Origin: a virus
DNA: 64,000 nt
Reading direction: 5' to 3' (one strand)
IMG/VR virus record: IMGVR_UViG_3300035666_000007
Coordinates: 1-64,000 of that record
The notes under the pieces were generated by a model. It did not search any database, was not told the origin of the DNA, and saw only the letters and a list, made by a program, of their open reading frames with translations. Position numbers and translations under genes: made by a program. The stretch's first letter is position 1, and each line of letters begins with the position of its first letter. Positions 13,149 to 36,054 of the stretch are shown here, one piece after another.

Positions 13149-13679
13149 TCACCATTCTTCGTAGGGCTCGCGCTCTTCTGACCGCATCAACCTCGCTGGC
13201 GCCGGCTGGTGGTGAGGGTGCCCCGCAGGCAAAGAATTGGCAGAGGCCAGATACGACCACGGAGCTTGAATCATCTCCATCTCGTCGGCGGTGAATTCCG
13301 GCTCGGGCTGAATGGTGGGGCGGGTCCACAGAGGGACAGGTTCTTTATTCCCCGATTTGAAGCGGGCCAACTTTTCGTCAAGCGTTACTTCCCAGTTCTC
13401 GCGCCAATTTTCTCCGTCAAAGTCTGCCTCGCCCCGGTACATCCATGCCTTCACCTCCTCCGGCTCGGGCTGGGATTCAGCTGCAGCGTGTGAGCAGCCA
13501 GCAAGGAACGCCTCGCGTATTGCCCAGCCATGCCAGGCGGGAATGCCAGGAGCGGCTTGAATGTCGGCTGTGTGCGATACCCAATCGACGTAGGCGTAGG
13601 AGGCCCTCACCTCTGGATGGAGGTCGTTGTCCATGATCCTTGCTGTGTGCTCGGGGGTGATGTCCATGCTGGCAATCAT
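13149..13679 (-). CDS. Mosaic hypothetical protein with two QPEPE linkers
   Basis: 'SQPEPEEV', 'RPTIQPEPEFT'. Confidence 0.65.
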   Translation of the reverse strand: MIASMDITPEHTARIMDNDLHPEVRASYAYVDWVSHTADIQAAPGIPAWHGWAIREAFLAGCSHAAAESQPEPEEVKAWMYRGEADFDGENWRENWEVTLDEKLARFKSGNKEPVPLWTRPTIQPEPEFTADEMEMIQAPWSYLASANSLPAGHPHHQPAPARLMRSEEREPYEEW

Positions 13680-13876
13680 GAGGGTGGGATTAGTGGTGGT
13701 CGCTAGAGGATCCGGGATCGGCTTCGGTTTCGGGCCTGCCGATCATTGCGGCAAATAGCTCCATAGCCTCGAAGTCGTCAACTGATGAGTTACCCATGAT
13801 TTAGCGGGGCAATTGAACAATCGCGGAATGTTGCAAGGCCGGCAGCACGACAGGCGCCCGCCGCAATATTAAGAGC

Positions 13877-14314
13877 ATGGCAGGCGGCGGCAAGAACCAG
13901 CAAGGCGGCGGAGGCAGCGGTATCGACCTTTTGATGCGCTTGCGTGGCTGGAGCTTCAGGGAAGCAATTCAAAGGATTGAGGGCTACTACTACAGCCTAC
14001 CATTCCAGCCCACCGTAAAGCAAGCGACGCCTCTCCCAAAGCCATCGACCTCTAACTACAAGCACTCAGAGCTTGAGCGCTTCTTGCTGCTGGAACTTGC
14101 TTGCCAGCTTATTGGTGATGAATCATTTTCACCGGCACAGGCAAGGCAGCGGACTTACTCCAAGCGCTGGGCGGTCTACGCATCGACTAACCACGACCTG
14201 GCCTGCTCAGTTGCCTTGCAATTTGAGACAGAGCGTGGTATCGTGGATGAGTTGGGAATGTGTCCAGACGGCTCCATTCCGACAATGCCGAAGATTTTCG
14301 CTCTCAACCCATGA
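13877..14314 (+). CDS. Protein starting with the C-terminal half of a primase Zn-ribbon domain
   Basis: 'GGKNQQGGGGSGIDLLMRLRGWSFREAIQRIE'; the CxxC pairs normally preceding this are absent. Confidence 0.55.
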   Translation: MAGGGKNQQGGGGSGIDLLMRLRGWSFREAIQRIEGYYYSLPFQPTVKQATPLPKPSTSNYKHSELERFLLLELACQLIGDESFSPAQARQRTYSKRWAVYASTNHDLACSVALQFETERGIVDELGMCPDGSIPTMPKIFALNP

Positions 14315-14781
14315 AACGCATGAAACGCGACCCGCACCTACCATCGCCCGAAGTTTGCGACTGGCTACTAAGCCAAGAGTGGTCAACCCCCGAAACCTTA
14401 CGTTTTGAAGGCAAGCACTCTAAGGGCTATATAAATGACTGCTGCGAGGCGTCAGCCGCTATTGGCCGTAACGAGATAATAAACCTGTATCTGCCGGCAT
14501 TTGGCTTGCGAGTCCTTCGCGATGATGCGGCAGCCCGCAAGGCTGGCGAATATGAAATAGGGGCGAACTTTGCCGAGCGAGCCGACTTGGAAGGCAAAAA
14601 AAAGCCTAAGGCCGGCAAAGTTGACGAGGACCAGCAATTAGTAATAGACATCAATGGGGTGATCGAGTCCGCCAACGTTTCCGCTACAGCAGCCGTGGGG
14701 GCTTGTACGATGGTTGCCATCGCGCTTACTAGCCAAATTTACGACCTTGCAATGCAAGAAAGCAAAGCACAGGTTCCCTAA
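14311..14781 (+). CDS. Hypothetical protein
   Basis: ATGA overlap with upstream stop. Confidence 0.55.
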   Translation: MKRMKRDPHLPSPEVCDWLLSQEWSTPETLRFEGKHSKGYINDCCEASAAIGRNEIINLYLPAFGLRVLRDDAAARKAGEYEIGANFAERADLEGKKKPKAGKVDEDQQLVIDINGVIESANVSATAAVGACTMVAIALTSQIYDLAMQESKAQVP

Positions 14782-14826
14782 GGCTTAGCTAGCGCAATTC
14801 TTGTTTTTCATCTTTACCATTCCAAA

Positions 14827-15084
14827 ATGTCTAGCAAAAAACTTGTTACAGGCTCGTCGGAAATCGCTACACGCATCGCAAATGCGCTAGGCTTTGAGGG
14901 GCTTTTTGTCAAGTCAGTCAACATAAAAATTGCCGCCGACGAAGTAATTAGTGTTGTCGCTGTAATCTATCCGACCAAAGAGCAATGCGAAGCGCTTGGC
15001 GGAGAAATTGAAAAGTTCAAGCAATTTGGCGCTGTTCACGGCGTTGTTGAATTTACTTACACCGAGGAAAACGATGGCGAGTGA
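14827..15084 (+). CDS. Hypothetical protein; paralogue of 12682..12999
   Basis: Shared N-terminal motif and 'PTxxQ'. Confidence 0.65.
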   Translation: MSSKKLVTGSSEIATRIANALGFEGLFVKSVNIKIAADEVISVVAVIYPTKEQCEALGGEIEKFKQFGAVHGVVEFTYTEENDGE

Positions 15085-15132
15085 GACGGTCCTTACCCTG
15101 GCGCTGGCCGTTCTAATTATTGAGCACAAATT

Positions 15133-15498
15133 ACGAAAGCAACTTACCTTGACCTAAAGACTGGCAAAACAGCTCAGGAAGAAGGACTCACAAAATGGGA
15201 CATTACGGAGGGGAACTGGTCATGCGACTGCAACAGATCTCTTGCTTTTGGCTTAATACGAAGTGATCATCGCAAAGACTTTTGCGTTTCCCAGCGCTTT
15301 ATTGTTATTGCAGTCGAGACTGAGCCTGGTGACTGCTTGCTGATTGACAAATGCCGAACAATTGCCGACGCGAACAGGGAATACCTGGGTTCAATTGTTG
15401 AAGCAACCAATTGCGGACGGGAAGCCGCTTACAACGAGGATCACCAAGGCGCGTATATCGTAAAAACTCTAAATAAAGCATTCGGAGAACCTGAATGA
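15133..15498 (+). CDS. Hypothetical protein ('EGNWSCDCNR' motif) lacking a canonical start; missing from ORF track
   Basis: 121 open codons ACG-AAA-GCA-ACT-TAC..., stop overlaps next ATG (ATGA). Confidence 0.6.
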   Translation, partial: TKATYLDLKTGKTAQEEGLTKWDITEGNWSCDCNRSLAFGLIRSDHRKDFCVSQRFIVIAVETEPGDCLLIDKCRTIADANREYLGSIVEATNCGREAAYNEDHQGAYIVKTLNKAFGEPE

Positions 15499-15713
15499 GA
15501 CTCTTTGATCCCGAAGCCCTTCTTGGGTTTGGAATGATACTTGCCTTAGTGCTGGCTGTCCTGGCTATTACCGCGCCAGAGCCAGAAGGCTGCAAACGAA
15601 CTGGAGCCACTCGCTCAACTGCCTCAGTTATAGCTATCGGGCCAGTGATTATACCATATACTTCCCAGGAGCCGGTGTATAAGTGCTTAAGAAAAAAGAA
15701 CAGCAATGATTGA
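15495..15713 (+). CDS. Small membrane-anchored protein
   Basis: N-terminal TM helix and two cysteines. Confidence 0.55.
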   Translation: MRLFDPEALLGFGMILALVLAVLAITAPEPEGCKRTGATRSTASVIAIGPVIIPYTSQEPVYKCLRKKNSND

Positions 15714-16128
15714 GCCTGACTTCCTTGCCTATCTTCGCCAGCACCACAGAATCGTTCCAGCCTTGCTCTCGATCATCGGGGCTTGATCCTTCCCAATGCT
15801 CTAGACGGAGCTTGCCTAGATCTGCAGCAGCTTTGAAGGCGGCGGCGAGTTTGACTTTGGGCGTCGAAAACCCAATGTCGTGGGCCTCCAGGACTTCCTC
15901 AGCGGTCAGTGAAAGTTCCATTGGCATCCAATGCGTCGGCGGATAGGCCCTGTCGTCGGTCTTGCTGGGACTAAGTAACCAAGAAGCCCAGTATGGGCGT
16001 GGCTTCGGCGCAAATCTGCAGTCGTCGTACCTGCCAGGGGCAATAGCGTACGAGTGAAGGCGATGGCCAGGCCGATACAGCAGGATGATTTTATCCTTCG
16101 GCGCTGTTTCAATCGGTTGCCAGTTCAT
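15649..16128 (-). CDS. DUF551-like protein
   Basis: 'WQPIETAPKD...PTHWMP'. Confidence 0.7.
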   Translation of the reverse strand: MNWQPIETAPKDKIILLYRPGHRLHSYAIAPGRYDDCRFAPKPRPYWASWLLSPSKTDDRAYPPTHWMPMELSLTAEEVLEAHDIGFSTPKVKLAAAFKAAADLGKLRLEHWEGSSPDDREQGWNDSVVLAKIGKEVRLNHCCSFFLSTYTPAPGKYMV

Positions 16129-16143
16129 TAGTGTGTTCCTCTA
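16126..16143 (-). repeat. Gene-junction motif A, copy 1 (TAGAGGAACACACTAATG); other copies at 17436, 18059, 18283, 20294, 36731
   Basis: Six near-identical copies, each between two minus-strand genes. Confidence 0.9.
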
Positions 16144-16350
16144 ATCAAGTGGAGTCAGGGATTGAATCACCAGTTGGCTAGCAATGGCGGGGCTGCCATC
16201 GTTATCTGCAATCTTTTGGCAAAGCTCAATAAGGAAGTTCCGAGACGAATAAGATGTCTCCATTTCAAAGATTCCACTGAAATAGCGCAGCTCGCCAGGG
16301 GCTTTCTGCATGAAAGCACAGTAGAAGTAAGAGCGCTTGGGATTGAACAT
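16141..16350 (-). CDS. Hypothetical protein; near-duplicate of 20309..20518
   Basis: MFNPKR.YFYCAFMQKAPGELRY.SG...IASQLVIQSLTPLD in both. Confidence 0.8.
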   Translation of the reverse strand: MFNPKRSYFYCAFMQKAPGELRYFSGIFEMETSYSSRNFLIELCQKIADNDGSPAIASQLVIQSLTPLD

Positions 16351-16357
16351 GAGTTGA

Positions 16358-16630
16358 TTAGCCTCCTTTGTTAACGGGAGATTGCAACGCTCGCCACTCT
16401 GCCCATGACGGATCGGCATCTTCGTCAGGCCAAAGGTCGCAACCATGACAGTCGTCCTTGTCGCCTGCGCAAAGGCAACGAGTTTCCGCTTCCTGCGGGG
16501 TCATGGCGCCGCATTCCTGACACGGCGGGAACTGGCGCAGGTAATACCAAATTTCGTCAGCCAGGGGATGATCGCCAGGCAGTGAAACGGCTAGTCGCTG
16601 GATCAGGTTGAGGGCGGCAGGATCACTCAT
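16358..16630 (-). CDS. Cys-rich hypothetical protein
   Basis: CxxC...CxC...CxxC. Confidence 0.55.
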   Translation of the reverse strand: MSDPAALNLIQRLAVSLPGDHPLADEIWYYLRQFPPCQECGAMTPQEAETRCLCAGDKDDCHGCDLWPDEDADPSWAEWRALQSPVNKGG

Positions 16631-16898
16631 GGATAGTCGATGGGTTGTAGGTCTTCTCGAAGATGTCGGGCTTGCACGGGTAGAACTCACCTTTTACGTC
16701 TTTGATGATCCAGTCGCCAGGGCTGGCGCGGTGGTCTCCTTCCAGTGTTGGGATAATCAAAGAGTTGTCCGCTGCGTAAATGGGTTTGCGATCCGAACCA
16801 CACTCAGACATCCAGAATGAAATGCGATCAACAGAGAAGGGCGATCCTTCAAACTGACGGGCTTCGATCCTGACGGGCTTCTTGGTAAAAAAAGGCAT
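16623..16898 (-). CDS. Conserved phage protein (PGDYG-like)
   Basis: 'KKPVRIEARQF...TLEGDHRASPGDWII...GEFYPCKPDIFEKTY'. Confidence 0.8.
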   Translation of the reverse strand: MPFFTKKPVRIEARQFEGSPFSVDRISFWMSECGSDRKPIYAADNSLIIPTLEGDHRASPGDWIIKDVKGEFYPCKPDIFEKTYNPSTIHE

Positions 16899-16901
16899 TG
16901 T

Positions 16902-17438
16902 TTAGATCTCCTCACTAGCGGGGGTATAAGCTGAAAGCATGGCCACCAGTTGCCTGGCTGACTGCCTGGCATCCATTAGGGGGTGATGAGCTGGCAGCTC
17001 GTCGGACAGTCGCTCTGTGGTAGCCAGCGGGTCAGTCCCCAGCGCCAACGCAACGCTGGCGAGATCGTGCAGCGGATACGGCCCTTGCCATTCGCGCTCG
17101 TGAGGGTTCATCCGAATGCAGGCACTGAGGAATCCGGTCTCTACGGGCCATGCACAGTCAGCCACCAGAACGGCTCCCTGATCGGCCCAGTGCCGCCACA
17201 CATGCCAGAAGGCGTTGCGGACGTGCTGTGGAGTAGGGCTGGTCCGGGCCAGCTCTGGCACGTTTGCAGCAACCCAGGCGCGGCTGTCCTCGGATCCCTT
17301 GCAGAGTGCCGGGTCGCAGGACAGCAGCCCTTCGTCAAGCCGTTCACCTTGGCGACTCACGACAACCCAGGCGGCTGCAAATCCTTCACCGTGGAGGCCA
17401 ATGCTCTCCACATCGAAAACCATGAACAGTTCAGTCAT
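16902..17438 (-). CDS. DEDDh 3'-5' exonuclease
   Basis: 'FDVES...' and 'HHPLMDARQS' catalytic motifs. Confidence 0.8.
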   Translation of the reverse strand: MTELFMVFDVESIGLHGEGFAAAWVVVSRQGERLDEGLLSCDPALCKGSEDSRAWVAANVPELARTSPTPQHVRNAFWHVWRHWADQGAVLVADCAWPVETGFLSACIRMNPHEREWQGPYPLHDLASVALALGTDPLATTERLSDELPAHHPLMDARQSARQLVAMLSAYTPASEEI

Positions 17439-17450
17439 TAGCGTGTTCCT

Positions 17451-17735
17451 CTAGAACAGGGTACATTGGTCTGGGTTTGGTGGAGAGATCGCGCCACGAC
17501 GCGCAATGCAGGCGTTGCCGGATGGATTCAGTTGTCTGCGAATCTCATCCCGCCAGATGCGGTAGGGGTGATAACGACGCTCCCCAAATGGGTACGCCTC
17601 AAGCAGTGCTCGACGCAGTGCTTTGGGGTCATCGGTGCCGACGCGGGCAATCACCTTGGCGATAATTGGTGCGGCGATCTTGCGCCAATAACTGGTGGAA
17701 TAGACGACGGCCATGGCCTTAGCCTTGCTCGCCAT
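17451..17735 (-). CDS. Hypothetical protein
   Basis: 'AYPFGERRYHPYRIWRDE' motif; stop lies in junction motif A. Confidence 0.65.
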   Translation of the reverse strand: MASKAKAMAVVYSTSYWRKIAAPIIAKVIARVGTDDPKALRRALLEAYPFGERRYHPYRIWRDEIRRQLNPSGNACIARRGAISPPNPDQCTLF

Positions 17736-18054
17736 CAGGTGTGCATCTACCAGCCCAAGCCCTGCGGGTATCGGCGTGAATACCTTCAACGTCGATCGAA
17801 TCGCAATCCGAAAAAGCGTGCATCAGTGCAGCATCTAGCAAGACGCCGGCCTTGTGCGGCGGCAATCGCAGATCGCAGATCACGCACTCCCACCAGCCTT
17901 GGTCCCATTGCGTGCAGACCTGGGCCCCTGCTCGCTGAAGTGGTTGGTTCCAAAGCATCAGTGCAGGATCGTCGTGGCATGGCTCGCGTTCTGAAGCGCG
18001 GGCTCGCATAGTTTCTTCGTGCAAACAGCATGGGCAGGCGATTGGTTGGGCCAT
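17719..18054 (-). CDS. Hypothetical protein with CxxC motifs
   Basis: Start preceded by junction motif A. Confidence 0.55.
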   Translation of the reverse strand: MAQPIACPCCLHEETMRARASEREPCHDDPALMLWNQPLQRAGAQVCTQWDQGWWECVICDLRLPPHKAGVLLDAALMHAFSDCDSIDVEGIHADTRRAWAGRCTPDGEQG

Positions 18055-18084
18055 GGTGATTAGTGTGTTCCTCTAGTAGGTCGG

Positions 18085-18285
18085 TTAAAGAAGTAAATCG
18101 TCAAGGTCTTTAATAAATTGCTGGACTTTTTTGTCAATAGGGGCAAATCCTTCGTCTACTTTTGTTCCGTCTGGGTAGTAGCTTGGCCAATATGTGTGGA
18201 GAATGCCGCGAAGCTCTCCCTTTGCTCGCTCCCAAGCCATCATCCGAATTGACGTGGCCAGGTTACGGTTTGAAACGTCGCCCAT
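18085..18285 (-). CDS. Hypothetical protein
   Basis: 'MAWERAKGELR'; flanked by junction motif A on both sides. Confidence 0.7.
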   Translation of the reverse strand: MGDVSNRNLATSIRMMAWERAKGELRGILHTYWPSYYPDGTKVDEGFAPIDKKVQQFIKDLDDLLL

Positions 18286-18584
18286 TAGTGTGTTCTCCTA
18301 AGAGATCGAGATAGACAGTTCAGCACTTCTAACTGCTCTGAGTTGAGCATTGCCTCCGTAATAGAGTGATCCATGTCCACGTATGCGAAAGGCCGACCGC
18401 GAACATTTCGGAAAGACAGCCACGAAGGTGGGCGAATGATCAGATCGTTACGGCCAAGGTCACTTGCGAGCCGTCGCGGGTAAGACAGGCAACTGTTGCG
18501 CCACACAAACGTCGCGCCCTGTGGAGCCGCAAGCATTTGGCGTGTTGTGCGGCCCGTTTGCCTGTCAGAGTGGTTTGGAATCAT
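18285..18584 (-). CDS. Hypothetical protein
   Basis: 'RQTGRTTRQMLAAP'; flanked by junction motifs B and A. Confidence 0.6.
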   Translation of the reverse strand: MIPNHSDRQTGRTTRQMLAAPQGATFVWRNSCLSYPRRLASDLGRNDLIIRPPSWLSFRNVRGRPFAYVDMDHSITEAMLNSEQLEVLNCLSRSLRRTH

Positions 18585-18587
18585 CTT

Positions 18588-19043
18588 TTAGCCTCCTTCA
18601 CTTGCAGGAATAACTTCTCCCATTTCCATTTCCGTAACAGTGCGGACTTGATGCCTGCGGATAATCAGCTTGTGCGGCCCATCTCTTGAGTAAACAGTCA
18701 GGTAGTGCATACCTTCCTGGCGCACTGCGCTTTGGTCGTTAGCCGATCCACCGGCAACCCATTCGCCGCTGGAATCTTGCAGCTCCCATTCGTAGTGCTC
18801 ATCCGTCTCATCAGCCGCAGCTCCCTTCGCTTCAGCCTGCGACTCAAGCCGCTCCACCACCTCAGGGTGCATGGAGGTATGGCGCTGGAGATAGGTAATC
18901 ATTAGGCGATGAGCCATTCCGGCATCTTCAATTAACTCGCCTCGGTAGTAAAACCCTTGGTCGTCAATGCGAATGACCTCCGAGATGGGTGAATCCCTAA
19001 AAATGATGAAATTATTTGACTGAGGCGGGATGAAATCGGTCAC
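18588..19043 (-). CDS. Two-module hypothetical protein
   Basis: 'EVIRIDDQGFYYRG' and 'YEWELQD...AGGSAND' modules; ends in junction motif B. Confidence 0.55.
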   Translation of the reverse strand: MTDFIPPQSNNFIIFRDSPISEVIRIDDQGFYYRGELIEDAGMAHRLMITYLQRHTSMHPEVVERLESQAEAKGAAADETDEHYEWELQDSSGEWVAGGSANDQSAVRQEGMHYLTVYSRDGPHKLIIRRHQVRTVTEMEMGEVIPASEGG

Positions 19044-19834
19044 GTTTGGAGGGGGATTGGTTGAGTGATCAAGACGAGCAATGCGGAAACGCATGTGGCG
19101 AGCCATTAGTCTACCAGCTAATTTGCAAATTATCCGCATTGCCCCTGCACGCAAGGCCTGGCGTTTGATGGCAAAACCACTGCTTGGAAAGATGCACCTG
19201 TTCTTCGGGGCCGGCAGTCCGAAGGGCTTCGCTGTAATCCAGGTAAAATCCACAAACCACAGCACAATCGTCACAGGCCTTGCCGCGAAGGGGGCGCGGC
19301 TGAATCGGGGTGCGCTGCTGAAGTGACTTCAACATTTCTTCAAGGCCGGAATCGGGATCAGCCAATTGATTAAAGCCCACTGCCAGGGTATGGATTGATT
19401 GGCCTTTTGCGGGTGTCATAAGGATGCTCGAAACAGGGGCTTGATGGCTGCTGGGACGCGGGAGGCAACGTGCATTCATAATGGAACGGTTCCCCTCCAA
19501 CCCAGGTCAGTCGATCGGACAATCCATGGCCGGCAATGGGTCGTCCACAATATTTACAGCGAATGGCTGAGCCTGTTGAAATGGTCATAGCGATGTGATT
19601 AACGATAGTTGTCAAGAGCGAACACGGGCGAGGTATGTAGGTCGCATCCGCCCGTGCTCGATACGCTGGGGGCAAAACCACGAGGCCACCCCGACTGAGG
19701 AGGCGTGCGGTTTTCGGGATGCTGGCACCAGCCGCCATCGCCACGTCCATCAGTTGGACGCAGGAGGCGAATGCAACTTCCGCATGTGGGCTCCCAGTTA
19801 GGATTCCGCCCACCGCTAACTCTATTATTCAAGT

Positions 19835-20296
19835 TCATCGGGCTTCCTTGCTGACAAGGTTGACGCTCTCTAGCTTAGCAGCAATTTGCTCAATCGCATC
19901 ATTATGTTTGTCAGCTCCGCAGTTACATTCATCACCTTCGCTGTCGTTGGCGCAGCCGTCTGGCGATTTCGGGCAGGAATACCAAGGGTCCTCGCATGAA
20001 TAGTGCTGGCGCCTAGCTAGGCGGACAAGTTCGGCTATTAACTCTTTCGCCCCTGGCTCGGGCTGGGCCTGGGTGACTCGCGCCTCTAGCGCCTCGACAT
20101 AGCGACGCACCTCCGTTTCCTCGGGATCACCAACGAAGTCCATGGCGAAGTCAAAGCACTCGGGGCGGGTTAGCGGCACCGGCTCGGGCTGGGATAGGAG
20201 GATGCGCATCTGGCTGATGACGCTCTCCATGTCGCAATCAGCATCCCAGAGTTCAACAGCAATGGCGCACAGGGCGCGGAAGTTAGTTTCGGTCAT
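19835..20296 (-). CDS. Mosaic 'FRALC...QPEP' protein
   Basis: N-terminus like 35365..36054; two QPEP linkers; Cys/His-rich C-terminus. Confidence 0.65.
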   Translation of the reverse strand: MTETNFRALCAIAVELWDADCDMESVISQMRILLSQPEPVPLTRPECFDFAMDFVGDPEETEVRRYVEALEARVTQAQPEPGAKELIAELVRLARRQHYSCEDPWYSCPKSPDGCANDSEGDECNCGADKHNDAIEQIAAKLESVNLVSKEAR

Positions 20297-20308
20297 TAGT
20301 GTGTTCCT

Positions 20309-29401: not shown

Positions 29402-30190
29402 TCACAGATTTAGCACAGCAGCTTGGTCATCGTCAAACTTACTTACAAGAGCGACGGCTGAGGGGCGCCCACCCCCCTGAAACTGCTGCCCCCAGGTCGG
29501 TGGCTTGTTTTTTTTGCCAAACTTCTTCCAGTTTGAATAGGTAATTGAAATCCATTTCTTTTCGCCAGCAGTGGATCTCTCAATCGCTTCTCGCAGCTGA
29601 GCCTTAACCTCATCGATTCCGCCATCTGGATCCCTCTCTATCCGAAGAAGGTTGTCAATCAGCCCATCAAACGCAACTTTTGCTTTTGACCCGCCTTTGT
29701 GGCTGTTGAAAAAGCTGCAAATTTGCGTATCAACAGCCTGAAGCTTGACTGGCACAATCGCATTGACGGCTGCGAACTTTTTGGGCGATCCAGTCGAGGC
29801 AGGGAGCCGTGGCGGAATAGGCGCCGGCTCGGAGCAGGGAGGAGGTGCCGTGGGAGCCGGGGCTTTCTCGACCTCCCAAAGCTTCAGCCTGTAGATATTT
29901 TCTGGGCGCCCGCCCTGGTTAAGTTTTACTGTTTTTTCGACAAGCCCTTTTTGTCGAAGCGAGGACACGCAGTCAGCGGCTGTCGCTCTTGAGATATTGG
30001 CGCAACTGCAAATAGCGTCATAGCACGGTTCGACAGAATCGCTACTTCCAGCACCGTCTGCAAAAAATTGCAAAGTGATCAAGACGCACAATTCGTTGTT
30101 ACTAAGCCAGCCACCTGGAGTCTCAAACTGCTTCCGAATAATCCAGTTCGGAATCGCCGTAAACGGATAACGGCTTTCAAAAACAGTCAT
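29402..30190 (-). CDS. Replication initiator-like HTH protein
   Basis: 'FTAIPNWI', HTH 'ISRATAADCVSSLRQKGLV...NIYRL'; directly upstream of dnaB. Confidence 0.7.
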   Translation of the reverse strand: MTVFESRYPFTAIPNWIIRKQFETPGGWLSNNELCVLITLQFFADGAGSSDSVEPCYDAICSCANISRATAADCVSSLRQKGLVEKTVKLNQGGRPENIYRLKLWEVEKAPAPTAPPPCSEPAPIPPRLPASTGSPKKFAAVNAIVPVKLQAVDTQICSFFNSHKGGSKAKVAFDGLIDNLLRIERDPDGGIDEVKAQLREAIERSTAGEKKWISITYSNWKKFGKKNKPPTWGQQFQGGGRPSAVALVSKFDDDQAAVLNL

Positions 30191-30375
30191 TTTCCACCTC
30201 GTGAATAAGCTTAAGTCCAAGCCTTGCGGCCTCAAGCTGCTGCTTTGAGAGTAAGTTGAATTTATTTTTATCGCCCTTACTGGCCGCTAAGATCTTGAGC
30301 ACCGCCAGGGAAGCTATTAGAGACGAAATCTCCTGCTCCTTCTCGGCCTGACCAGCGGTCATGATTGGGCGAATC

Positions 30376-30702
30376 TCAGATAGCCAAATCGCTACTCCAG
30401 TTGGGTCCGAATCTTCGCTCCAGCATTCCCGCGATGATTCGATTGATGTCACTCTCGGTCCTTTCGATAATTTTTCTGAACTTGCGATAAAGGTCAAATT
30501 CCTCCTTGTCCAAAAGGTCGATCTCTCGATGCAATTGATCCATTGCTGGCGAGCCCTCAATAGACTCGGTTGCCTTCATCAACAGTTTCTTTCTTTTTTC
30601 TTTAATTTCATCTGCTTTTTCTTTGTAAATTTCCCTTGCAGAAATTAGAGTCGATCTCGATCTGACAGCTCTTTCGAGATCCACGTAAACAGACTCATCC
30701 AT
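30376..30702 (-). CDS. Coiled-coil hypothetical protein
   Basis: Charged helical ORF. Confidence 0.55.
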   Translation of the reverse strand: MDESVYVDLERAVRSRSTLISAREIYKEKADEIKEKRKKLLMKATESIEGSPAMDQLHREIDLLDKEEFDLYRKFRKIIERTESDINRIIAGMLERRFGPNWSSDLAI

Positions 30703-30704
30703 TG

Positions 30705-31098
30705 CTATTCGTTTTTCGATTTCAACTTGAAAACATTGCAATGCCTCGCAAAAGAAGGGCCTTCTTCGAGAAGCTCTGGAAAGTCAAATTCACATTTCTT
30801 TTTTGTTCTCCATCGACGGAGACTGATTTGACCCAATACAGGCACCTGTAACAGCTGCTAGAGCCAGGCACGGCCCACTTGGCGGGTCGCGGAATCTCAG
30901 GGAGAACACTTTTGTAAGATTTTCCGATGAAAACATTTTGAACCGCCTGGCGACTGGAACCGAGGGTCCTGGCCTTTTCGTGACGCCGACCTTTGCGGTA
31001 AGAATCCATCGAATATTCTCCTCCGTAAACCTGCGATTACCGCCAGCCGTGGAAGGCTCGGGCCGCCTGTGCTCGGTTTTTTCGGATTGCCGGCTCAC
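30705..31098 (-). pseudogene. HTH plus Cys-cluster protein broken by two single-base frameshifts in A-runs
   Basis: Adding one A at 30975-30978 and one at 30799-30804 gives RRFTEENIRWIL..KKARTLGSSRQAV..CYRCLYW..KKCEFDFPELLEEGPSFARHCNVF. Confidence 0.65.
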
Positions 31099-31323
31099 TG
31101 AAAAATGCTTGCGCTGTAAACAAGGTTAGACACGTCGCCAAGTCAAAGCATTGAACCACCAAATCTTACCACCACAAGGACGGTTTGGCACTATGGGTCC
31201 CTGGCTTTGTGCCGCCGAAGACCACAGCAGCGTTACCGCCTCGATCCCTGGTCCTGGCTTCGTGGTGGGGCCTTCACGCCGCTTCTGTACTAATGCCGCG
31301 TAGTACAAGTGTCACAGCAGTCA

Positions 31324-32325
31324 TCACTGCCCCACTCCCCTGACATAGACAGGGCGATACCACTGAACGGACCTCTCCGAGCGCTTGGGACCGCGCAAGA
31401 CCGTGTGCCAGTGCCCTCGCCGCCAGTGGGCCCTGACGCCGCCAGGAGCCTCACCCTGTCGCTTCCCGGCTGGCTGATGACGCTGATAGTGAAAACTTTT
31501 GCCAATCCAGGTAGCCGGAAGTGGCTGCTTGGACAAGCTTTTTGTAAAACCAAGTCCTTTGGTAATAGAAACGGACTTATCAGTGGTAATCAATTCCGGC
31601 TCGTAAAGATGAACAAGAAGTGAATTGATGGCTACCCTTGCAAGCAAGTCGATCTCTTTCGGGCTCCCTTCCGCCTCTTTCTCCCCTTCTCCGTATCGAA
31701 CATTTTCGTCGTACCAACTTTTTGCTTTTTCGTCTACATAGTCAACCCATAGATAAGAGCCGGTTTCCGAAATCGTCGCAATTTCAATCCCCTTGGCCCC
31801 TTCGAGTTCCTTGGGAATTATCCTGCCCCCTGTTGATTTAGTGTATTTTTCCTGCTGCTCTCTTTCTGCTTGACTTAAGCTTGGATGTATTTGGCCAACC
31901 TTAACAACAAGAGCAATTACCTCTTCTCCATCTTTGTCAAACAGAAAATTTCGCGGTAGCAAGATATGGACAAACGGAAGAATGTCAAGAACATCTTTTG
32001 CTAGCACTGGTGTTGGGGTTTTTGTGAAGGCTTCGCAAAGTTCCTTGCTGATATATCGTGCCGGGGCGTCAGCGAGCAAGGCTTGGCGGCACACCTCACC
32101 AATGACACCTGATTGACAGTCTCCGTGCGCAAACGAAATCTGGGACATGTACTCGGTTCCTATTAGGGAAACCATTTTCAAGTAGTTGTCCCATTTGTAG
32201 TAACCAACAGGAGATCGATATTGACCAACTTTCGACAGGCAAATACTTTTGTATTCACCCGCCTCGCCAATGCCATCAAGAAGACTGCAAAGTGAATTTG
32301 ACAAGAGGACCCTCAGCTCCGTCAT
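31324..32325 (-). CDS. Hypothetical protein with C-terminal HWRRGHW motif
   Basis: 333-aa ORF, 'RAHWRRGHWH...WYRPVYV'. Confidence 0.7.
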   Translation of the reverse strand: MTELRVLLSNSLCSLLDGIGEAGEYKSICLSKVGQYRSPVGYYKWDNYLKMVSLIGTEYMSQISFAHGDCQSGVIGEVCRQALLADAPARYISKELCEAFTKTPTPVLAKDVLDILPFVHILLPRNFLFDKDGEEVIALVVKVGQIHPSLSQAEREQQEKYTKSTGGRIIPKELEGAKGIEIATISETGSYLWVDYVDEKAKSWYDENVRYGEGEKEAEGSPKEIDLLARVAINSLLVHLYEPELITTDKSVSITKGLGFTKSLSKQPLPATWIGKSFHYQRHQPAGKRQGEAPGGVRAHWRRGHWHTVLRGPKRSERSVQWYRPVYVRGVGQ

Positions 32326-32328
32326 CGT

Positions 32329-32916
32329 CTATTGCTCTGCTGCGTTTCTTGAGCCGTATCCAGACCTCGCGTTAGCGCCGTCCACCCAAGCAAGACAAGC
32401 AACTCGGCGAACATGCGACTCCTGATCCTCCCCGACAAGCGGCGATATTCCGCTTCCCTTGTTTTGCCACCAGCGCTCATACAATATACACAACTCTGCT
32501 GCCAGCCCCTGCGGCTCGGGACAAGAGAAGCCGATTTTGATATTTGTTTCAAATGGCACATCGCAGCCATTCCAAAGGTGTGGACCAAAGACGTTCATGA
32601 GGTAAAACATCTGCCACTTGCTCCAGCCGCCTGGTAGCTCTGCGGGTAAATCAATACCCTGAGAACGCAAAACATTGCGGCCTACCGGAGTTAGCCGAAC
32701 GTACACATAGCTATTGATGTTGAAATCAATCACTGGTTTTGCAGTGGGCCCTGCAGTGGCACGCTCGGCAGCCCAGGGCGTCCACCACGGCTGGCCAGGG
32801 ACGATCAGGGTGTGGTGCTGCCACCTCGCAGACCTGGGCACCTGCACCTCCCCATCGCCATTTGCATCCGCCTTTGTCGGCAGCCGGTCTGTGATCCATT
32901 CGCTTGTCATGTCCAT
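32329..32916 (-). CDS. Mosaic hypothetical protein
   Basis: 'WITDRLPT' module, 'FNINSYVYVRLT' module and PEPQ linker. Confidence 0.6.
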   Translation of the reverse strand: MDMTSEWITDRLPTKADANGDGEVQVPRSARWQHHTLIVPGQPWWTPWAAERATAGPTAKPVIDFNINSYVYVRLTPVGRNVLRSQGIDLPAELPGGWSKWQMFYLMNVFGPHLWNGCDVPFETNIKIGFSCPEPQGLAAELCILYERWWQNKGSGISPLVGEDQESHVRRVACLAWVDGANARSGYGSRNAAEQ

Positions 32917-32964
32917 TGGGGTATAAGTGAATGCCGGGATTCAATGGTCTCCCGGCGGGACGAA

Positions 32965-33636
32965 TTAGGCAGAAGCGGCGATCACCGCTTCTGGATCTGG
33001 AAAGCCAAATAGCGGCAAGAAGAAGAATGGCTGATTGTTTGCACGCATAGTAGCAGCGCCTTGAATCTCATTGGAGGCCCTGGCTGCTGCCCAGGCTGCT
33101 TCCCCGGCTGCTTCCCCGGCTGCTTCCCCGGCTGCTTCCCAGGCTGCTTCCCCGGCTGCTGCCCCGGCTGCTTCCCCGGCTGCTTCCCCGGCTGCCGCCC
33201 TGGCTGCTGCCCAGGCTGCTTCCCCGGCTGCTTCCCCGGCTGCCCAGGCTGTCGCACTGGCTGCTGTCCAGGCTGCTGCCCAGGCCGCTGCCGTCATACG
33301 ATCAAGATGCCGCCAAAATGCAAGGACCAGATGCGCCTGATCTCCTAAAACTTGCTTAGGACTGCGAATTACGCTAGAAGGCGCACCTTCCTGTCTGTCG
33401 TTGACAATGCGCAACAAAACCGAATGAGCGACACTGATGCCAAACAGTTCGGCGACTTTCCTATCAGCGGCAGCCTGATCAATCTTGCGCAATTCATCGA
33501 CGGTCATCCCGCTTAAAAAATTCAGCGCCTGACCTTGAGCGCACATGCAAGAGCCGTCGTCACTGACGAGACTTCCTTTGAAAGGAATATTTCCAGGCCA
33601 GTAATCAAGAAGTTCATCAACTGTGGATGGTGTCAT
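32965..33636 (-). CDS. Ala-rich repeat protein (AAWA/AAGE)
   Basis: Globular N-terminus, Ala-rich tetrapeptide repeats, 'EIQGA...FFFLPLFGF' end. Confidence 0.7.
   Translation of the reverse strand: MTPSTVDELLDYWPGNIPFKGSLVSDDGSCMCAQGQALNFLSGMTVDELRKIDQAAADRKVAELFGISVAHSVLLRIVNDRQEGAPSSVIRSPKQVLGDQAHLVLAFWRHLDRMTAAAWAAAWTAASATAWAAGEAAGEAAWAAARAAAGEAAGEAAGAAAGEAAWEAAGEAAGEAAGEAAWAAARASNEIQGAATMRANNQPFFFLPLFGFPDPEAVIAASA
33077..33290. repeat. 12-bp coding tandem repeat
   Basis: GGCTGCT(T/G)CCC(C/A) units. Confidence 0.95.
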
Positions 33637-33698
33637 CGAAAGATGCGAGGGTAAGTGGATGAAGCGGGTTGCCGGGTAGGCTCCGGCGGGCCAAGCTT

Positions 33699-34106
33699 TT
33701 ACTTCTCAATCTGCAGGGTCGGAACCGGCATTCCGCCTTCAGTCGGAACATAAATTGTCCGATTGCCTTTATCCGAACCTTCCTGCAAGCCAACAATATA
33801 AAGATATTGAAGGTAGCGAGGATTGTTTTCAAGGCTCCTGCCGATGATCTTATTCGCCTCGGCTACGCCATTTGCTCTTGCGATCTCAGCAGCTGCCTCA
33901 AAGCTCGCTGAATCCTTCTTGGCCTTTGCCTCAAGCACCTTTACCTGCCTGGTAGACTCGGCCTCCATTAAAGCCGCCTTTCCGCTAGTAGCGCGATAGT
34001 AAACATTTATCTGGGGGATAAGCCAAAAAACGCCCGCGACACACAGCAAAAGTGTCAAAACAACAATTGCGATCTTGCGAAAATCGTATTCGTGTGGAAA
34101 TTCCAT
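33699..34106 (-). CDS. Membrane protein, SPFH/band-7-like C-terminal coiled coil
   Basis: TM helix, then 'AEIARANGVAEANKIIGRSL...YLQYLYI...IYVPTEGG'. Confidence 0.7.
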   Translation of the reverse strand: MEFPHEYDFRKIAIVVLTLLLCVAGVFWLIPQINVYYRATSGKAALMEAESTRQVKVLEAKAKKDSASFEAAAEIARANGVAEANKIIGRSLENNPRYLQYLYIVGLQEGSDKGNRTIYVPTEGGMPVPTLQIEK

Positions 34107-35364
34107 GAGATTTAGAATAGATTAAAATTGTTAGAACTTGGCAAGCCGCGACTCTAGGACTGGCGACTTTCCATTTTTTGATAAGCAATAGCCAGTAGTT
34201 CGTTGACAGATAGAGAATCTGCATTGCGGAAGGGTTTGATGCCCTCCTCAAACGGAACAGACTGTACGCTACGGGCTTTGATCTCAACTGTCACTTCTGG
34301 CTGACGGGAGACCATCTCCGCAAACTCGCCCCCGTAACCCACAAACCCTGCAGTCGGCTGGTAAAAGGAGATTCCAGTTGCGTAGTAATCAGAAAGAAGC
34401 CAAAGATTCCGGTCTTTCTTGTCGTGAGCGAATTGCGGAAGGCTGATGGCCATTCGCTTGCCATCAGCAATAACAAAGCCTCTCTTGGCGAACAGGTCCA
34501 TCAGCTTTCCGTCAGCATCAGGATTTCAGACTGGTCATGCTTAAGCAATTCGGCTAGATCAGCCTTCGCCTTGGCAAGCATAAGCTCAAGCCTTTTGATT
34601 TCAAGAAGGCGATTTTTGATAATTTTCTTCACCTCGCTTTGCTCATCAGCCTCCAGCTCAAGCATCGCTTCTTGAAGCAACGCCTTGTTATCGCCTGACA
34701 GCTCAATATCAGTGAAAGTGGTTTTAAGGGCAATCATTGACTGTTGGGAATGATAGGGATCTGCCAAATTGGGTGCGGCTTTGGCGGGCCGCGTTATCTA
34801 CATGGCGGCCTTAAGATCAGGTGATATTCGCCTTGATGATCGAATGACATTGCTGCACGGTGAGTATATCCGGATCGGACTGAGACAGAGCAACATCAAG
34901 GGCCGCAATAGCGGATGACAGACGCGGACTCTTCCATCCCTGTCCGGGAGGCCCTTCGTCACAGTGACTTTCAGCGGCTTCGAGAATTACTTGCCACTGA
35001 TCGCTGGCCAGGGTGATCGTCTTGGTAGGGATGGTCATGGAAGGGGCTCCTGAGGCGCCGGCAACTCAACGCGCTCAACGGTGAGCATCTCGCCCTTGCG
35101 CTTGAACCGATAAAGTTGGCTTTCGTCAGGATTTGCAAAAGTCCGAAACAAGGCACCATTATACCTGACTCCATGAATCAGATAAGTATCGGTCCACACG
35201 TCGTAGTGGTTAGGACGAGAAAGAAAGTGGCCAAGCATTTCCCGTGGAAACAGCAAGGTACGCAAGCTCACTGCCCACCATGGCAATATACGGCCTTCGG
35301 GCACGTATTGATGAACCACTGAATTAAAAAGGTTAGAGCGAGATCGGAAAAAGTTCATGATAGC

Positions 35365-36054
35365 TCAAGAATTGTTTTGCGGCACCGGCAGGGCGTTGTG
35401 AGGAAGGGAGTGGGAGTCATGAACCGGCTCCTCATCGCGGTTGGGCGTGTCGAGGACCCATCTGCGCAGCGTCGCATTTGCAAGTCGGCACGGGATTTCC
35501 GCTGGTCGGTAGAGCCAACACCTCCCCTCCGCATCGCACCACCCCTCGCGCTCCCAGGGCCGTTCAGCGACCGGCACCGGCTGGATGGTGGGGCGGGCGT
35601 AGCGGGTGATGGCAGCCAGCAGTAGCTCACTCATCTCGCAATGGGCTGACTCCAGGCATCCTCCGGGCTTCAACCATGTGGCCCAGGGCTCCTTGCTATA
35701 CGCGAAGGCGATCAGGTTTACATGGTCCGGGCTCACCCCCTCCGGCTCGGGCTGGACGGTGGGGCGGCACCAGCGGGACTCCAGCAGATCGCCAGCGGCA
35801 ATCAGTAGTTGCTGCAGAGGGCTTCCTGGCTCAGCCTCAACCGCTGCTTCGTGGCAGCCGACAGCAACGGACGGGGGCCACTGCAATTCCCGCCCTTCAT
35901 CCGTCACCCCCTCCGGCTCGGGCTGGGCTAGCAAGGCGCGGGCGCGGTCTACCAAGGGAATCATGTTTTCATGCAGATCATCGGGGTTTGTTGATCTGCT
36001 CCAGACGAAGATTACCTCAGAGCACAAGGCGCGGTAGTCGTTTGGGGTAGTCAT
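35365..36054 (-). CDS. Mosaic 'YRALC...QPEPE' protein
   Basis: Two QPEPEGV linkers plus 'PTIQPVPVAERPWEREGWCDAEGRCW'. Confidence 0.65.
   Translation of the reverse strand: MTTPNDYRALCSEVIFVWSRSTNPDDLHENMIPLVDRARALLAQPEPEGVTDEGRELQWPPSVAVGCHEAAVEAEPGSPLQQLLIAAGDLLESRWCRPTVQPEPEGVSPDHVNLIAFAYSKEPWATWLKPGGCLESAHCEMSELLLAAITRYARPTIQPVPVAERPWEREGWCDAEGRCWLYRPAEIPCRLANATLRRWVLDTPNRDEEPVHDSHSLPHNALPVPQNNS

What the first reader, a model, noticed from the sequence alone, without database searches (positions are those of the whole stretch)
13297..35930. In-frame 'QPEP' linker DNA repeat appears to join protein modules into mosaic genes
GGCTCGGGCTG (minus strand CAG CCC GAG CC = QPEP) recurs with the same codons at about 13300, 13462, 20055, 20181, 35744 and 35915. 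Extended RPT(I/V)QP variants occur at about 13310, 35580 and 35755. It is always in the same frame and separates unrelated 40-60 aa segments in three genes, two of which share an (F/Y)RALC N-terminus. Conservation at synonymous positions suggests the DNA rather than the peptide matters. Inference: intragenic module shuffling that generates combinatorial protein variants, a second tier below the intergenic junctions.
Basis: partly seen in the sequence, partly recalled or inferred. Interest (0 to 1): 0.7.

Follow-up and report, generated by a model that had tools for sequence, protein, structure and literature searches.

The report
DNA-conserved linker shuffles phage protein modules
Three small early genes of this uncultured 98-kb phage are built from interchangeable 35-70-residue modules joined in frame by a short proline-rich linker whose DNA is nearly invariant, even at silent positions, in over a hundred related viral contigs, so the linker most likely serves as the crossover point at which phages swap protein modules.

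Summary
GGCTCGGGCTG occurs six times (0.08 expected), always on the minus strand and always read as CAG CCC GAG CC (QPEP), in three genes.

- **Silent positions.** In 52 viral loci found through module peptides rather than linker DNA, the linker keeps the same codons: CAG 35/35, CCC 34/35, GAG 35/35, GGG 20/21. Background use of these codons is 0.29-0.71. Codon identity at conserved residues is 93% in the linker core and 55% inside modules.
- **Module re-assortment.** Every module of all three genes occurs elsewhere with other partners. Among 122 relatives there are 120 different architectures. They follow a grammar of N-terminal cap, internal modules and C-terminal cap.
- **Breakpoints.** Of 187 sharp DNA-similarity breakpoints, 72% lie within 30 nt of a linker (26% by chance).
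- **Recombinases.** The phage encodes an Erf-like annealing protein. Some related contigs encode a RecT-like one nearby.

Best explanation: short-homology recombination within the linker DNA swaps modules in frame. What the proteins do is unknown.

The closest known precedent is conserved-motif recombination in T-even adhesin genes, so I rate this a new variant of a known kind. This scan has noted comparable DNA-conserved linkers, with other sequences, on other phage DNA.

Caveats: all relatives are metagenomic assemblies, and no crossover was observed directly.

The parts
35365..36054 (-). Mosaic gene g35 (P0003, 229 aa): N-cap module, linker, internal module B, linker, internal module C, QPVP linker, C-cap module
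   Evidence: Translation. 723 partial homologues covering 23-100% of the query. Seen on 3 contigs.
35926..36054 (-). g35 module A (aa 1-43), an N-terminal cap of the 'YRALC...RARALLA' type
   Evidence: About 97% DNA identity to L007 from the ribosome-binding site to the linker, unrelated after it. Cluster K9 is always N-terminal and has 5 different right-hand neighbours.
35914..35925 (-). Linker 1 copy, QPEP (CAGCCCGAGCCG)
35755..35913 (-). g35 module B (aa 48-100), 'GRELQWPPSVAVGCHEAAVEAEPGSPLQQLL...RWCRPTV'
   Evidence: The same module follows the N-module of P0001 in P0033 and a close homologue of the N-module of P0002 in P0019.
35743..35754 (-). Linker 1 copy, QPEP, preceded by RPTV
35584..35742 (-). 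g35 module C (aa 105-157), 'PDHVNLIAFA..EPWATWLK.GGCLESAHCE'
   Evidence: Cluster K2 has 17 members, 16 different left and 12 different right neighbours. Against L120 the module is 72.6% identical in DNA while both flanking linkers keep identical codons.
35572..35583 (-). Linker 2 copy, QPVP (CAGCCGGTGCCG), within RPTIQPVPV
35368..35571 (-). g35 module D (aa 162-229), C-terminal cap 'AERPWEREGWCDAEGRCW...LPHNALPVP'
   Evidence: Clusters K0, K1 and K5 are always C-terminal. No Pfam hit. AlphaFold2 model with pLDDT 70 has no structural match.
19835..20296 (-). Mosaic gene g20 (P0002, 153 aa): N-cap 'FRALC' (20192-20296), QPEP (20180-20191), middle module (20066-20179), QPEP (20054-20065), Cys-rich module (19838-20053)
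   Evidence: The middle module sits behind other N-caps and before other C-modules in P0164, P0165, P0167, P0176, P0177 and P0184. The Cys-rich module occurs in more than 100 other proteins.
13149..13679 (-). Mosaic gene g13 (P0001, 176 aa): module 1 (13473-13679), QPEP (13461-13472), module 2 (13311-13460), QPEP (13299-13310), module 3 (13152-13298)
   Evidence: Module 1 recurs in P0033 and P0124-P0130, and is internal in P0137, P0138 and P0145. Module 2 recurs in P0131-P0136 and P0141-P0148. Module 3 recurs in P0054 and P0155-P0157.
18588..19274 (-). Fourth gene drawing on the same module pool but joined without QPEP (P0123; true start uncertain)
   Evidence: aa 82-135 match P0142 and P0147; aa 156-228 match P0133, P0136 and P0140.
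10506..11399 (-). Erf-like single-strand annealing protein, the candidate catalyst of short-homology recombination (an inferred link)
   Evidence: phrog_155 at E = 7.7e-25. It lies 1.75 kb downstream of g13 on the same strand.

Best explanation
The three genes belong to a large pool of small, early-region phage proteins. Each is assembled as N-terminal cap, a variable number of internal modules, and C-terminal cap. Modules are joined by two proline-rich linkers. Linker 1 is ...ALA-QPEP-(E/Q)G-PT..., with DNA consensus GCC CTG GCC CAG CCC GAG CCG GAG GGG CCG ACG. Linker 2 is ...RW.RP(A/T)I(E/Q)PVPV.... The linker peptide is a neutral flexible spacer. The linker DNA, always read in the same phase, supplies a short stretch of near-identity shared by otherwise unrelated genes. 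When related phages or prophage remnants meet in one cell, short-homology recombination within the linker exchanges whatever lies to one side of it. Phage annealing proteins are the likely catalysts (Erf here, RecT-like in relatives), with host RecA or template switching as alternatives. Every product stays in frame and forms a new module combination. Each exchange copies linker sequence, so the linkers are homogenised at silent sites while module interiors drift. Shown here: the repeat, its phase, its silent-site conservation across contigs, module re-assortment, and similarity breakpoints at linkers. Inferred: the enzyme, the crossover lying inside the linker, the setting of co-infection, and the reason for the diversification. 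The likeliest reason is an arms race with host or competitor functions; the function of the proteins is unknown.
For: - **Repeat.** Six exact copies against 0.08 expected, all in one codon phase.
- **Linker codons.** In loci retrieved by module peptides only, the linker codons are CAG 35/35 (background 0.65), CCC 34/35 (0.37), GAG 35/35 (0.71), CCG 31/35 (0.31) and GGG 20/21 (0.29).
- **Silent-site identity.** Codon identity at identical residues in diverged alignments is 93% in the linker 1 core, 82% in the linker 2 core, 72% within 8 aa of a linker and 55% in module interiors.
- **Spread.** In 596 Gb of cellular genomes it has only 50 matches. All but one look like chance or an unrelated actinobacterial conserved motif 'HIAQPEPEG' (which I recognise as FabF/beta-ketoacyl-synthase-like, not tool-checked).
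- **Architectures.** 120 architectures among 122 proteins, with position-specific caps and promiscuous internal modules. All modules of P0001 and P0002 also re-assort.
- **Breakpoints.** g35 and L007 are about 97% identical from the ribosome-binding site to linker 1 and unrelated after it. Of 187 sharp breakpoints among 108 ORFs from 98 records, 72% lie within 30 nt of a linker against 26% at random. Most of the rest are at linkers my pattern missed, at the gene start, or at the CDAEGRCW motif.
- **Recombinases.** An Erf-like annealing protein lies 1.75 kb away on the same strand. RecT-like genes lie 0.8-2.6 kb from family genes in 11 related loci. Rad52-like phage recombinases, Erf included, recombine short diverged sequences, and Red-beta has a minimal pairing segment of 23-27 bp (PMC3945230).
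Against: - **Homology is short.** The exact identity shared through the linker between unrelated records is short: median 17 nt, with only 15% of pairs reaching 23 nt. Most pairs therefore fall below the published minimal pairing length, and exchange would be rare.
- **Breakpoint position is partly built in.** Because the linker is conserved everywhere, a similarity breakpoint must fall at its edge whatever the real crossover position. The breakpoints show that linkers bound the exchanged units. They do not prove that strand exchange happens inside them.
- **Other motifs are conserved too.** Other conserved peptide motifs of the family also show raised silent-site identity of 0.3-0.97. Part of the signal may be recent common descent.
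- **Data source.** All relatives are metagenome assemblies, and a shared 30-nt repeat could create some chimeric contigs.
Confidence: 0.7

Rival explanations
1. Modules are exchanged by some other route, such as illegitimate recombination filtered by selection for folded products, or whole-gene replacement. The linker DNA is then conserved only because the whole pool shares a recent ancestor or a strong local codon preference. On this view the linker marks domain boundaries and is not the crossover substrate.
For: Family ORFs are GC-rich and prefer CAG, GAG and CCC. Other conserved motifs also show raised codon identity. Exact shared runs are mostly shorter than 23 nt. A breakpoint at the edge of a universally conserved block is expected under any mechanism.
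Against: The linker codons include non-preferred ones kept almost without exception: GGG 20/21 against 0.29 background, CCG 31/35 against 0.31, ACG 12/16 against 0.21, and AGT 4/4 against 0.07 in linker 2. Within the same alignments, silent identity falls from 93% in the linker to 55% in module interiors. Random joints would give linkers of variable length and sequence, which is not what is seen.
Confidence: 0.15
2. The linker DNA or RNA is conserved because it carries another signal. Candidates are a recognition site for a nuclease or site-specific recombinase, a restriction-type cut-and-ligate site (CCCGAG fits CYCGRG), a translational pause or internal Shine-Dalgarno-like site (GGAGGGG), an RNA structure, or a protease cleavage site in the peptide.
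For: The conservation covers about 27-33 nt, the size of a protein-binding site. GGAGGGG lies inside linker 1. An HNH endonuclease gene is present in 33 of 171 related loci.
Against: CCCGAG is not avoided elsewhere in the genome (46 observed, 31 expected), although true palindromes such as CTCGAG are absent (0 against 24 expected). The HNH gene is not found in this phage, and in relatives it lies about 2.3 kb away on the opposite strand. All six copies are direct repeats in separate genes, so intragenomic site-specific recombination would delete essential genes. RNA folds of the six copies are no more stable than shuffles (z from -0.9 to +1.7) and share no structure. Linker 2 is equally conserved but contains no GGAGG. 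A protease site would constrain the peptide, not the silent positions.
Confidence: 0.08
3. Much of the apparent combinatorial diversity is an artefact: metagenome assemblers joined reads from different genes through the shared linker repeat.
For: All relatives come from metagenomes, many on contigs of 1-3 kb. The linkers are near-identical repeats of about 20-30 nt.
Against: The three genes studied lie on a 98-kb contig with terminal repeats, rated complete. P0003 was assembled on 3 contigs and P0001 and P0002 on 2 each. By my count of the contigs column, 24 of the 120 listed relatives were assembled independently on 2-13 contigs. Final assembly k-mers normally exceed 30 nt (my own knowledge).
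Confidence: 0.05

Closest known systems
Conserved-motif recombination in T-even long-tail-fibre and adhesin genes (gp37 His boxes; gp38 glycine-rich motifs separating hypervariable segments). Source: Tetart et al. 1996 and 1998 as cited in PMC3157838.
   Same: Short conserved motifs, read in frame, alternate with variable segments. [quoted passage not shown] A population-wide library of interchangeable segments results.
   Different: Those are virion adhesins in which the motifs form a structural core and the variable parts are loops of one domain. Here the genes are small early-region proteins of unknown function. The exchanged units are whole 35-70-aa modules of unrelated sequence and variable number. 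The spacer is a proline-rich linker. Silent-site invariance has been measured across more than 100 contigs.
Mosaic Ea22 and exo-xis-region accessory proteins of lambdoid and Stx phages (PMC10834534)
   Same: These are early genes next to the phage recombination functions, with a mosaic organisation and 'portable' C-terminal domains, including DUF551 in one variant. Three of 56 relatives here carry a true DUF551 C-cap.
   Different: There is no Ead/Ea22 signature or any other Pfam hit in the three genes. The Ea22 papers read here describe mosaicism but not a DNA-conserved linker.
General protein-fragment mosaicism in phages (Smug et al. 2023, PMC10684548) and Botstein's modular theory with linker sequences (Botstein 1980, cited in PMC3157838)
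   Same: Sub-gene fragments recombine among phages. This case is an intragenic instance of the homologous 'linker' that Botstein's theory postulated between modules.
   Different: The survey describes the phenomenon statistically, mainly for receptor-binding proteins, lysins and polymerases (abstract). I have read only the abstract of that survey; I did not find there the kind of single, defined, silent-site-conserved junction sequence reported here.
Relaxed homologous recombination by Rad52-like phage recombinases (De Paepe et al. 2014, PMC3945230)
   Same: It provides the enzymology assumed here: Erf, RecT and Red-beta recombine short and diverged homologies and drive phage mosaicism. This phage has an Erf-like gene.
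   Different: That work concerns exchanges of hundreds of base pairs between gene blocks, not 15-30-nt in-frame junctions inside genes.

Membership tests
Conserved-motif-mediated in-frame segment shuffling (T-even gp37/gp38 type) | Short conserved motifs alternate with variable segments in one reading frame | tested here: met
Conserved-motif-mediated in-frame segment shuffling (T-even gp37/gp38 type) | Natural chimeras whose exchange points lie in or next to the conserved motifs | tested here: met
   g35 against L007. 72% of 187 breakpoints lie within 30 nt of a linker against 26% at random.
Conserved-motif-mediated in-frame segment shuffling (T-even gp37/gp38 type) | Recombinants recovered experimentally from phage crosses | not testable with these tools
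   No culture exists and no isolate phage carries the family (tblastn found no match).
Conserved-motif-mediated in-frame segment shuffling (T-even gp37/gp38 type) | The gene encodes a tail-fibre or adhesin protein | tested here: not met
   No Pfam or PHROG hit. The genes lie in the early replication and recombination region next to Erf, DnaB and a sigma factor. The system works like the gp38 case but is not a member of that gene family.
DUF551 (PF04448) for the C-terminal cap | Match to the Pfam model above threshold | tested here: not met
   P0003 has no hit at E <= 1. Only 3 of 56 relatives match, and they carry a different, longer C-cap type.
DUF551 (PF04448) for the C-terminal cap | Shared fold with a solved member | tested here: inconclusive
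   The model has pLDDT 69.6. Foldseek against the PDB found nothing at E <= 0.001. VIA-align wide found no match with Z >= 2. A profile search of the PDB found nothing significant.
Ea22 / Ead family (PF13935, IPR025153) | Ead/Ea22 coiled-coil signature | tested here: not met
   No Pfam family matches P0001-P0003 or 56 relatives apart from DUF551 and one TPR hit.
Shufflon or invertible-segment systems (site-specific recombinase acting on short repeats) | Inverted repeats flanking invertible segments, with a dedicated recombinase | tested here: not met
   All six copies are direct repeats on one strand in three separate genes 6-16 kb apart. No recombinase was found among the commonest neighbouring gene clusters.
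Diversity-generating retroelement | Reverse transcriptase plus a template/variable repeat pair with adenine-specific differences | not tested
   No reverse transcriptase search was run. The variation seen is replacement of whole unrelated modules, not point changes in a repeat.

The most novel reading that the evidence does not exclude
The linker is not merely a passively homogenised joint. It is a selected 'recombination address': a roughly 30-nt in-frame DNA word maintained across a whole lineage of (probably picocyanobacterial) phages because it lets them draw on a shared library of small effector modules. It would work as a natural combinatorial-library device for early anti-host or anti-competitor proteins, possibly serviced preferentially by the phages' own annealing proteins.
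Probability: 0.25. Interest if true: 0.8.

Novelty: new variant of a known kind. Interest (0 to 1): 0.62.

Why it matters
Botstein's 1980 modular theory proposed that phages exchange modules at short homologous linkers. Later genomics mostly found no such linkers between genes. This finding is a concrete intragenic case: one defined junction sequence, conserved at silent positions, shared by well over a hundred natural contigs, with measurable module re-assortment around it.

That makes a long-debated mechanism directly testable. The test is to recode the linker synonymously and ask whether in-frame exchange stops.

It also flags a very diverse, wholly uncharacterised class of small early phage proteins. 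Their near-unique architectures suggest rapid diversification, perhaps an arms race with host functions; their role is untested. The finding also gives a rule for parsing such proteins into modules. Finally, this scan has noted analogous DNA-conserved linkers with other sequences in unrelated phages, so the device may be general.

Tried and rejected
- **Restriction-type cut-and-ligate at CCCGAG (fits CYCGRG).** Rejected. CCCGAG and CTCGGG are not depleted (46 against 31 expected), although palindromic hexamers are strongly avoided.
- **RNA structure at the linker.** Rejected. z-scores run from -0.9 to +1.7 and there is no common fold.
- **HNH endonuclease as a dedicated partner.** It is common in related loci (33 records) but was not found in this genome, and in relatives it is distant and on the opposite strand.
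- **Codon bias alone.** Rejected.
- **Function from sequence or structure.** Nothing informative came from Pfam, PHROGs, ESM Atlas, AlphaFold2 with Foldseek, VIA-align or the PDB profile search.
- **Isolate phages.** megablast found only a trivial 50-nt Gordonia phage match unrelated to the finding. tblastn of P0003 found nothing.
- **First genome-contig scan with P0003 peptides.** Nothing found.
- **First module clustering by single linkage.** It collapsed into one cluster because of the shared linker flanks. I replaced it with trimmed-core greedy clustering.
- **First breakpoint test.** Loose criteria gave only modest enrichment. I refined it to sharp breakpoints.
- **Literature.** A search for the linker and cap peptide strings found no paper.


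Full report
**1. The observation**

GGCTCGGGCTG occurs exactly six times in the window, at 13300, 13462, 20055, 20181, 35744 and 35915. Dinucleotide-preserving shuffles give 0.08 on average, and none of 100 reached six. The window is the first 64 kb of a 98,034-bp viral record with direct terminal repeats, rated complete. The six copies are the only ones in that genome.

All six lie on the minus strand. They are read as CAG CCC GAG CC(G/A) = QPEP in three ORFs:
- 13149-13679 (P0001, 176 aa)
- 19835-20296 (P0002, 153 aa)
- 35365-36054 (P0003, 229 aa)

The ORFs occupy three different absolute frames, so the shared codon phase is a property of the genes and not of position. The RPT(I/V)QP extensions are at the stated places. 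P0002 and P0003 begin with the (F/Y)RALC motif.

From this genome's own codon usage (CAG 0.54, CCC 0.26, GAG 0.48), the chance that the Q, P and E codons are the same in all six copies is about 1e-6. The one other coding QPEP in the genome uses different codons. The identity among the six copies extends only 11-23 nt.

**2. What the genes are**

None of the three proteins matches a Pfam or PHROG family. No isolate phage has a relative. In the large protein collection, P0003 has 723 relatives, P0001 has 37 and P0002 has 220. Nearly all cover only part of the query.

Marking the linkers in these sequences shows a clear modular design:
- An N-terminal cap, usually 'MT..(F/W/Y)RALCAEL....ARAALA'.
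- Linker 1, 'QPEP(E/Q)G'.
- One or more internal modules, which often begin 'PTDEEL' and end 'ARWGRP(A/T)I'.
- Linker 2, '(E/Q)PVPV'.
- A C-terminal cap, 'SERLPGPEDCDAEGRCW....THWLPHHALPVP'.

Every module of the three window genes recurs elsewhere with other partners:
- P0033 joins module 1 of P0001 to module B of P0003.
- P0019 joins a close homologue of the N-cap of P0002 to module B of P0003.
- P0027 and L007 carry the N-cap of P0003 followed by unrelated modules.
- Module 2 of P0001 sits behind 'FRALC' caps in P0131-P0136 and P0141-P0148.
- Module 3 of P0001 is in P0054 and P0155-P0157.
- The middle module of P0002 is internal in P0164-P0184, and N-terminal in P0026 and P0053.

I split 122 proteins at the linkers, trimmed the linker flanks and clustered the cores. 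This gave 201 module clusters and 120 different architectures. Cap modules are strictly N- or C-terminal. Internal modules have up to 16 different left and 12 different right neighbours.

A fourth window gene, 18588-19274, uses two modules of the same pool without a QPEP joint.

**3. The DNA of the linker**

The 52 viral loci were retrieved with back-translated module peptides. They are therefore unbiased with respect to linker DNA. In them, QPEP is CAGCCCGAGCCG in 29 of 38 instances; several of the exceptions lie in ORFs that do not look like family members, e.g. L013, L022, L046.

Within family ORFs the codon counts are:

| Residue | Codon | Count | Background in the same ORFs |
|---|---|---|---|
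| A (before Q) | GCC | 25/26 | 0.49 |
| Q | CAG | 35/35 | 0.65 |
| P | CCC | 34/35 | 0.37 |
| E | GAG | 35/35 | 0.71 |
| P | CCG | 31/35 | 0.31 |
| E | GAG | 24/25 | 0.71 |
| G | GGG | 20/21 | 0.29 |
| T | ACG | 12/16 | 0.21 |

The DNA consensus is GCC CTG GCC CAG CCC GAG CCG GAG GGG CCG ACG. Linker 2 behaves in the same way, with consensus CGC CCC GCC ATC GAG CCG GTG CCG GTG AGT GAG CGG. It includes the rare AGT codon in 4 of 4 cases.

I then took alignments between genes of different records at 35-85% protein identity. Codon identity at identical residues was 93% in the linker 1 core, 82% in the linker 2 core, 72% within eight residues of a linker and 55% inside modules (per-position view).

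One pair illustrates this. Module C of g35 and its L120 homologue are 72.6% identical in DNA and differ at 17 of 29 same-residue codons. Both flanking linkers keep every codon.

In 596 Gb of cellular genomes it has 50 matches. Nearly all are in high-GC actinobacteria, in unrelated frames or in an unrelated conserved motif, 'HIAQPEPEG', which I recognise as FabF/beta-ketoacyl-synthase-like (my identification, not tool-checked). Only one is a true family gene, on a contig of an uncultured Synechococcus MAG.

That MAG holds two such contigs with the same linker DNA. The C-cap profile is found in 4 of 201 genomes of its order. The host is therefore probably a picocyanobacterium, but this is not shown.

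**4. Where similarity ends**

g35 and the L007 gene are about 97% identical in DNA from the ribosome-binding site through the N-cap to linker 1. About ten bases beyond it they become unalignable.

I took 108 family ORFs from 98 records and collected every place where an alignment of at least 94% identity and at least 90 nt is followed by less than 45% identity. Of 187 such breakpoints, 38% lie within 15 nt and 72% within 30 nt of a linker centre. Random positions give 13% and 26%.

Inspection shows that most of the remainder sit in one of three places: at linkers my strict pattern missed ('RWGRPAI', 'PEPQG', 'ALPVPGAEV'), at the start codon, or in the conserved CDAEGRCW motif. A looser first version of the test gave a weaker but consistent enrichment.

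One caveat applies. Because the linker is conserved in all genes, a breakpoint must map to its edge wherever the crossover really occurred. The result shows that linkers bound the exchanged units. It does not show that strand exchange takes place inside them.

**5. Mechanism**

The genes lie in the minus-strand early region. Nearby are an Erf-like annealing protein (10506-11399), a DnaB-like helicase, a replication initiator and a sigma factor. In related loci the commonest neighbours include a sigma factor, dCTP deaminase, a methyltransferase, an HNH endonuclease and a RecT-like annealing protein. The RecT-like gene lies 0.8-2.6 kb away on the same strand in 11 loci.

[quoted passage not shown] The linker consensus is about 27-33 nt. 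The exact run shared by random pairs of unrelated records is only 17 nt at the median, with an interquartile range of 14-21 nt, and 15% of pairs reach 23 nt. Exchange at the linker is therefore plausible but should be infrequent per encounter. Template switching on microhomology is an alternative route to the same products.

All six copies are direct repeats in separate genes. Recombination between them within one genome would delete replication genes. The productive events must therefore be between genomes, or between the two copies inside one gene, which would change module number.

**6. Rivals**

- **Codon bias or recent descent alone.** This does not explain the retention of non-preferred codons or the gradient from 93% to 55%.
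- **A restriction-type site.** CCCGAG fits CYCGRG, but it is not avoided elsewhere (46 observed, 31 expected). True palindromes such as CTCGAG (0 against 24), GAGCTC (0 against 24) and TTCGAA (0 against 26) are missing.
- **An RNA structure.** The six copies fold no better than shuffles and share no structure.
- **A dedicated HNH nuclease.** It is not found in this phage.
- **A protease site.** This would constrain the peptide but not the silent positions.
- **Assembly chimeras.** These cannot be excluded for individual short contigs. However, the three genes sit on a complete 98-kb contig and were assembled two or three times. By my count of the contigs column, 24 of the 120 listed relatives were seen on 2-13 independent contigs.

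**7. Function of the proteins**

The function is unknown. The C-cap of P0003 resembles DUF551 in its ends ('SERLP...', '...THWLP..LP'). It does not match the Pfam model, and only 3 of 56 relatives, which carry a longer cap type, do so.

An AlphaFold2 model of the cap, built from 51 sequences, has pLDDT 69.6 and two short strands. It has no structural match. ESM Atlas gave nothing above noise.

The Cys-rich module of P0002 is widespread. In another mosaic set, joined by other linkers, it co-occurs with a Lar restriction-alleviation domain. This is a weak hint at anti-defence roles.

Three things support the guess that these are host-interaction or anti-competitor effectors: the early location, the extreme architectural diversity, and the parallel with the mosaic ea22 region of lambdoid phages (PMC10834534). 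This remains inference.

**8. Comparison with what is known**

In-frame exchange at conserved motifs is established for T-even tail-fibre and adhesin genes. [quoted passage not shown] Fragment-level mosaicism of phage proteins has been surveyed (PMC10684548), and mosaic Ea22 variants with portable domains have been described.

I found no description of this family or its linker. A search for the peptide strings returned nothing.

The present case differs from the known ones in several ways. The genes are non-structural early genes. Whole unrelated modules are exchanged, in variable number. The joint is a proline-rich spacer and not a structural core. Silent-site invariance is documented across more than 100 contigs. 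I therefore class it as a new variant of a known kind.

Earlier notes of this scan report analogous DNA-conserved in-frame linkers with other sequences in other phages, and a candidate intergenic cassette system in this same genome. I did not test those.

**9. Verdict**

My confidence is 0.7 that the linker DNA is the site of short-homology, in-frame module exchange. Interest is 0.62.

Noticed in passing
whole genome G000 (window 1-64000 and beyond): Strong avoidance of palindromic hexamers. Eleven have no copy at all: CTCGAG 0 against 24 expected, GAGCTC 0 against 24, TTCGAA 0 against 26, GTCGAC 0 against 18, CCGCGG 0 against 15. GCGATCGC (HIP1) is also absent. This probably reflects restriction avoidance.
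   Followed up: partly
window 18588-19274 (-): A fourth gene built from two modules of the same pool. aa 82-135 match P0142 and P0147; aa 156-228 match P0133, P0136 and P0140. The modules are joined by a different, non-QPEP spacer. The ORF's true start is uncertain.
   Followed up: partly
related loci, e.g. L061:2164-2902, L064:3577-4590, L085:4288-4908: A second small gene family ('HPITPPPEL...AAQWGADQELEACCEWL...RRPKPPSLKEQAL...IRRALEALPDD', phrog_32006) lies beside the mosaic genes in 45 cases across related loci, always on the same strand, with a median gap of 222 nt. In L085 it is fused to an N-cap through a QPEP linker. It was not found in this window.
   Followed up: partly
window 19838-20053 (-); proteins P0166-P0196, P0238, P0260, P0268: The Cys-rich module of P0002 (HY.CED.WYSCPK..DGCANDSEGDECNCGAD) also occurs in a different mosaic protein set joined by other spacers ('AKDEPVA', 'PPQRKPLTDEE'). 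Three of those proteins carry a Pfam Lar restriction-alleviation domain as a separate module.
   Followed up: partly
window 12000-40000 versus 44000-60000: G+C content is 0.48-0.58 in the minus-strand early region that holds the mosaic genes and 0.44-0.47 in the plus-strand block at 44-60 kb. Family ORFs in relatives are also GC-rich.
   Followed up: no
window 16126-37030: An earlier first-reader note on this genome proposes conserved stop/RBS/start junctions between small genes, acting as an intergenic cassette system. In line with it, similarity between g35 and L007 begins abruptly just upstream of the start codon, and several breakpoints fall at gene starts.
   Followed up: partly
L178-L227 (cellular genomes): The linker 20-mer matches an unrelated conserved motif, 'HIAQPEPEG' (which I recognise as FabF/beta-ketoacyl-synthase-like, not tool-checked), in about a dozen high-GC (largely actinobacterial) genomes. 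This is a coincidental identity unrelated to the phage family.
   Followed up: yes
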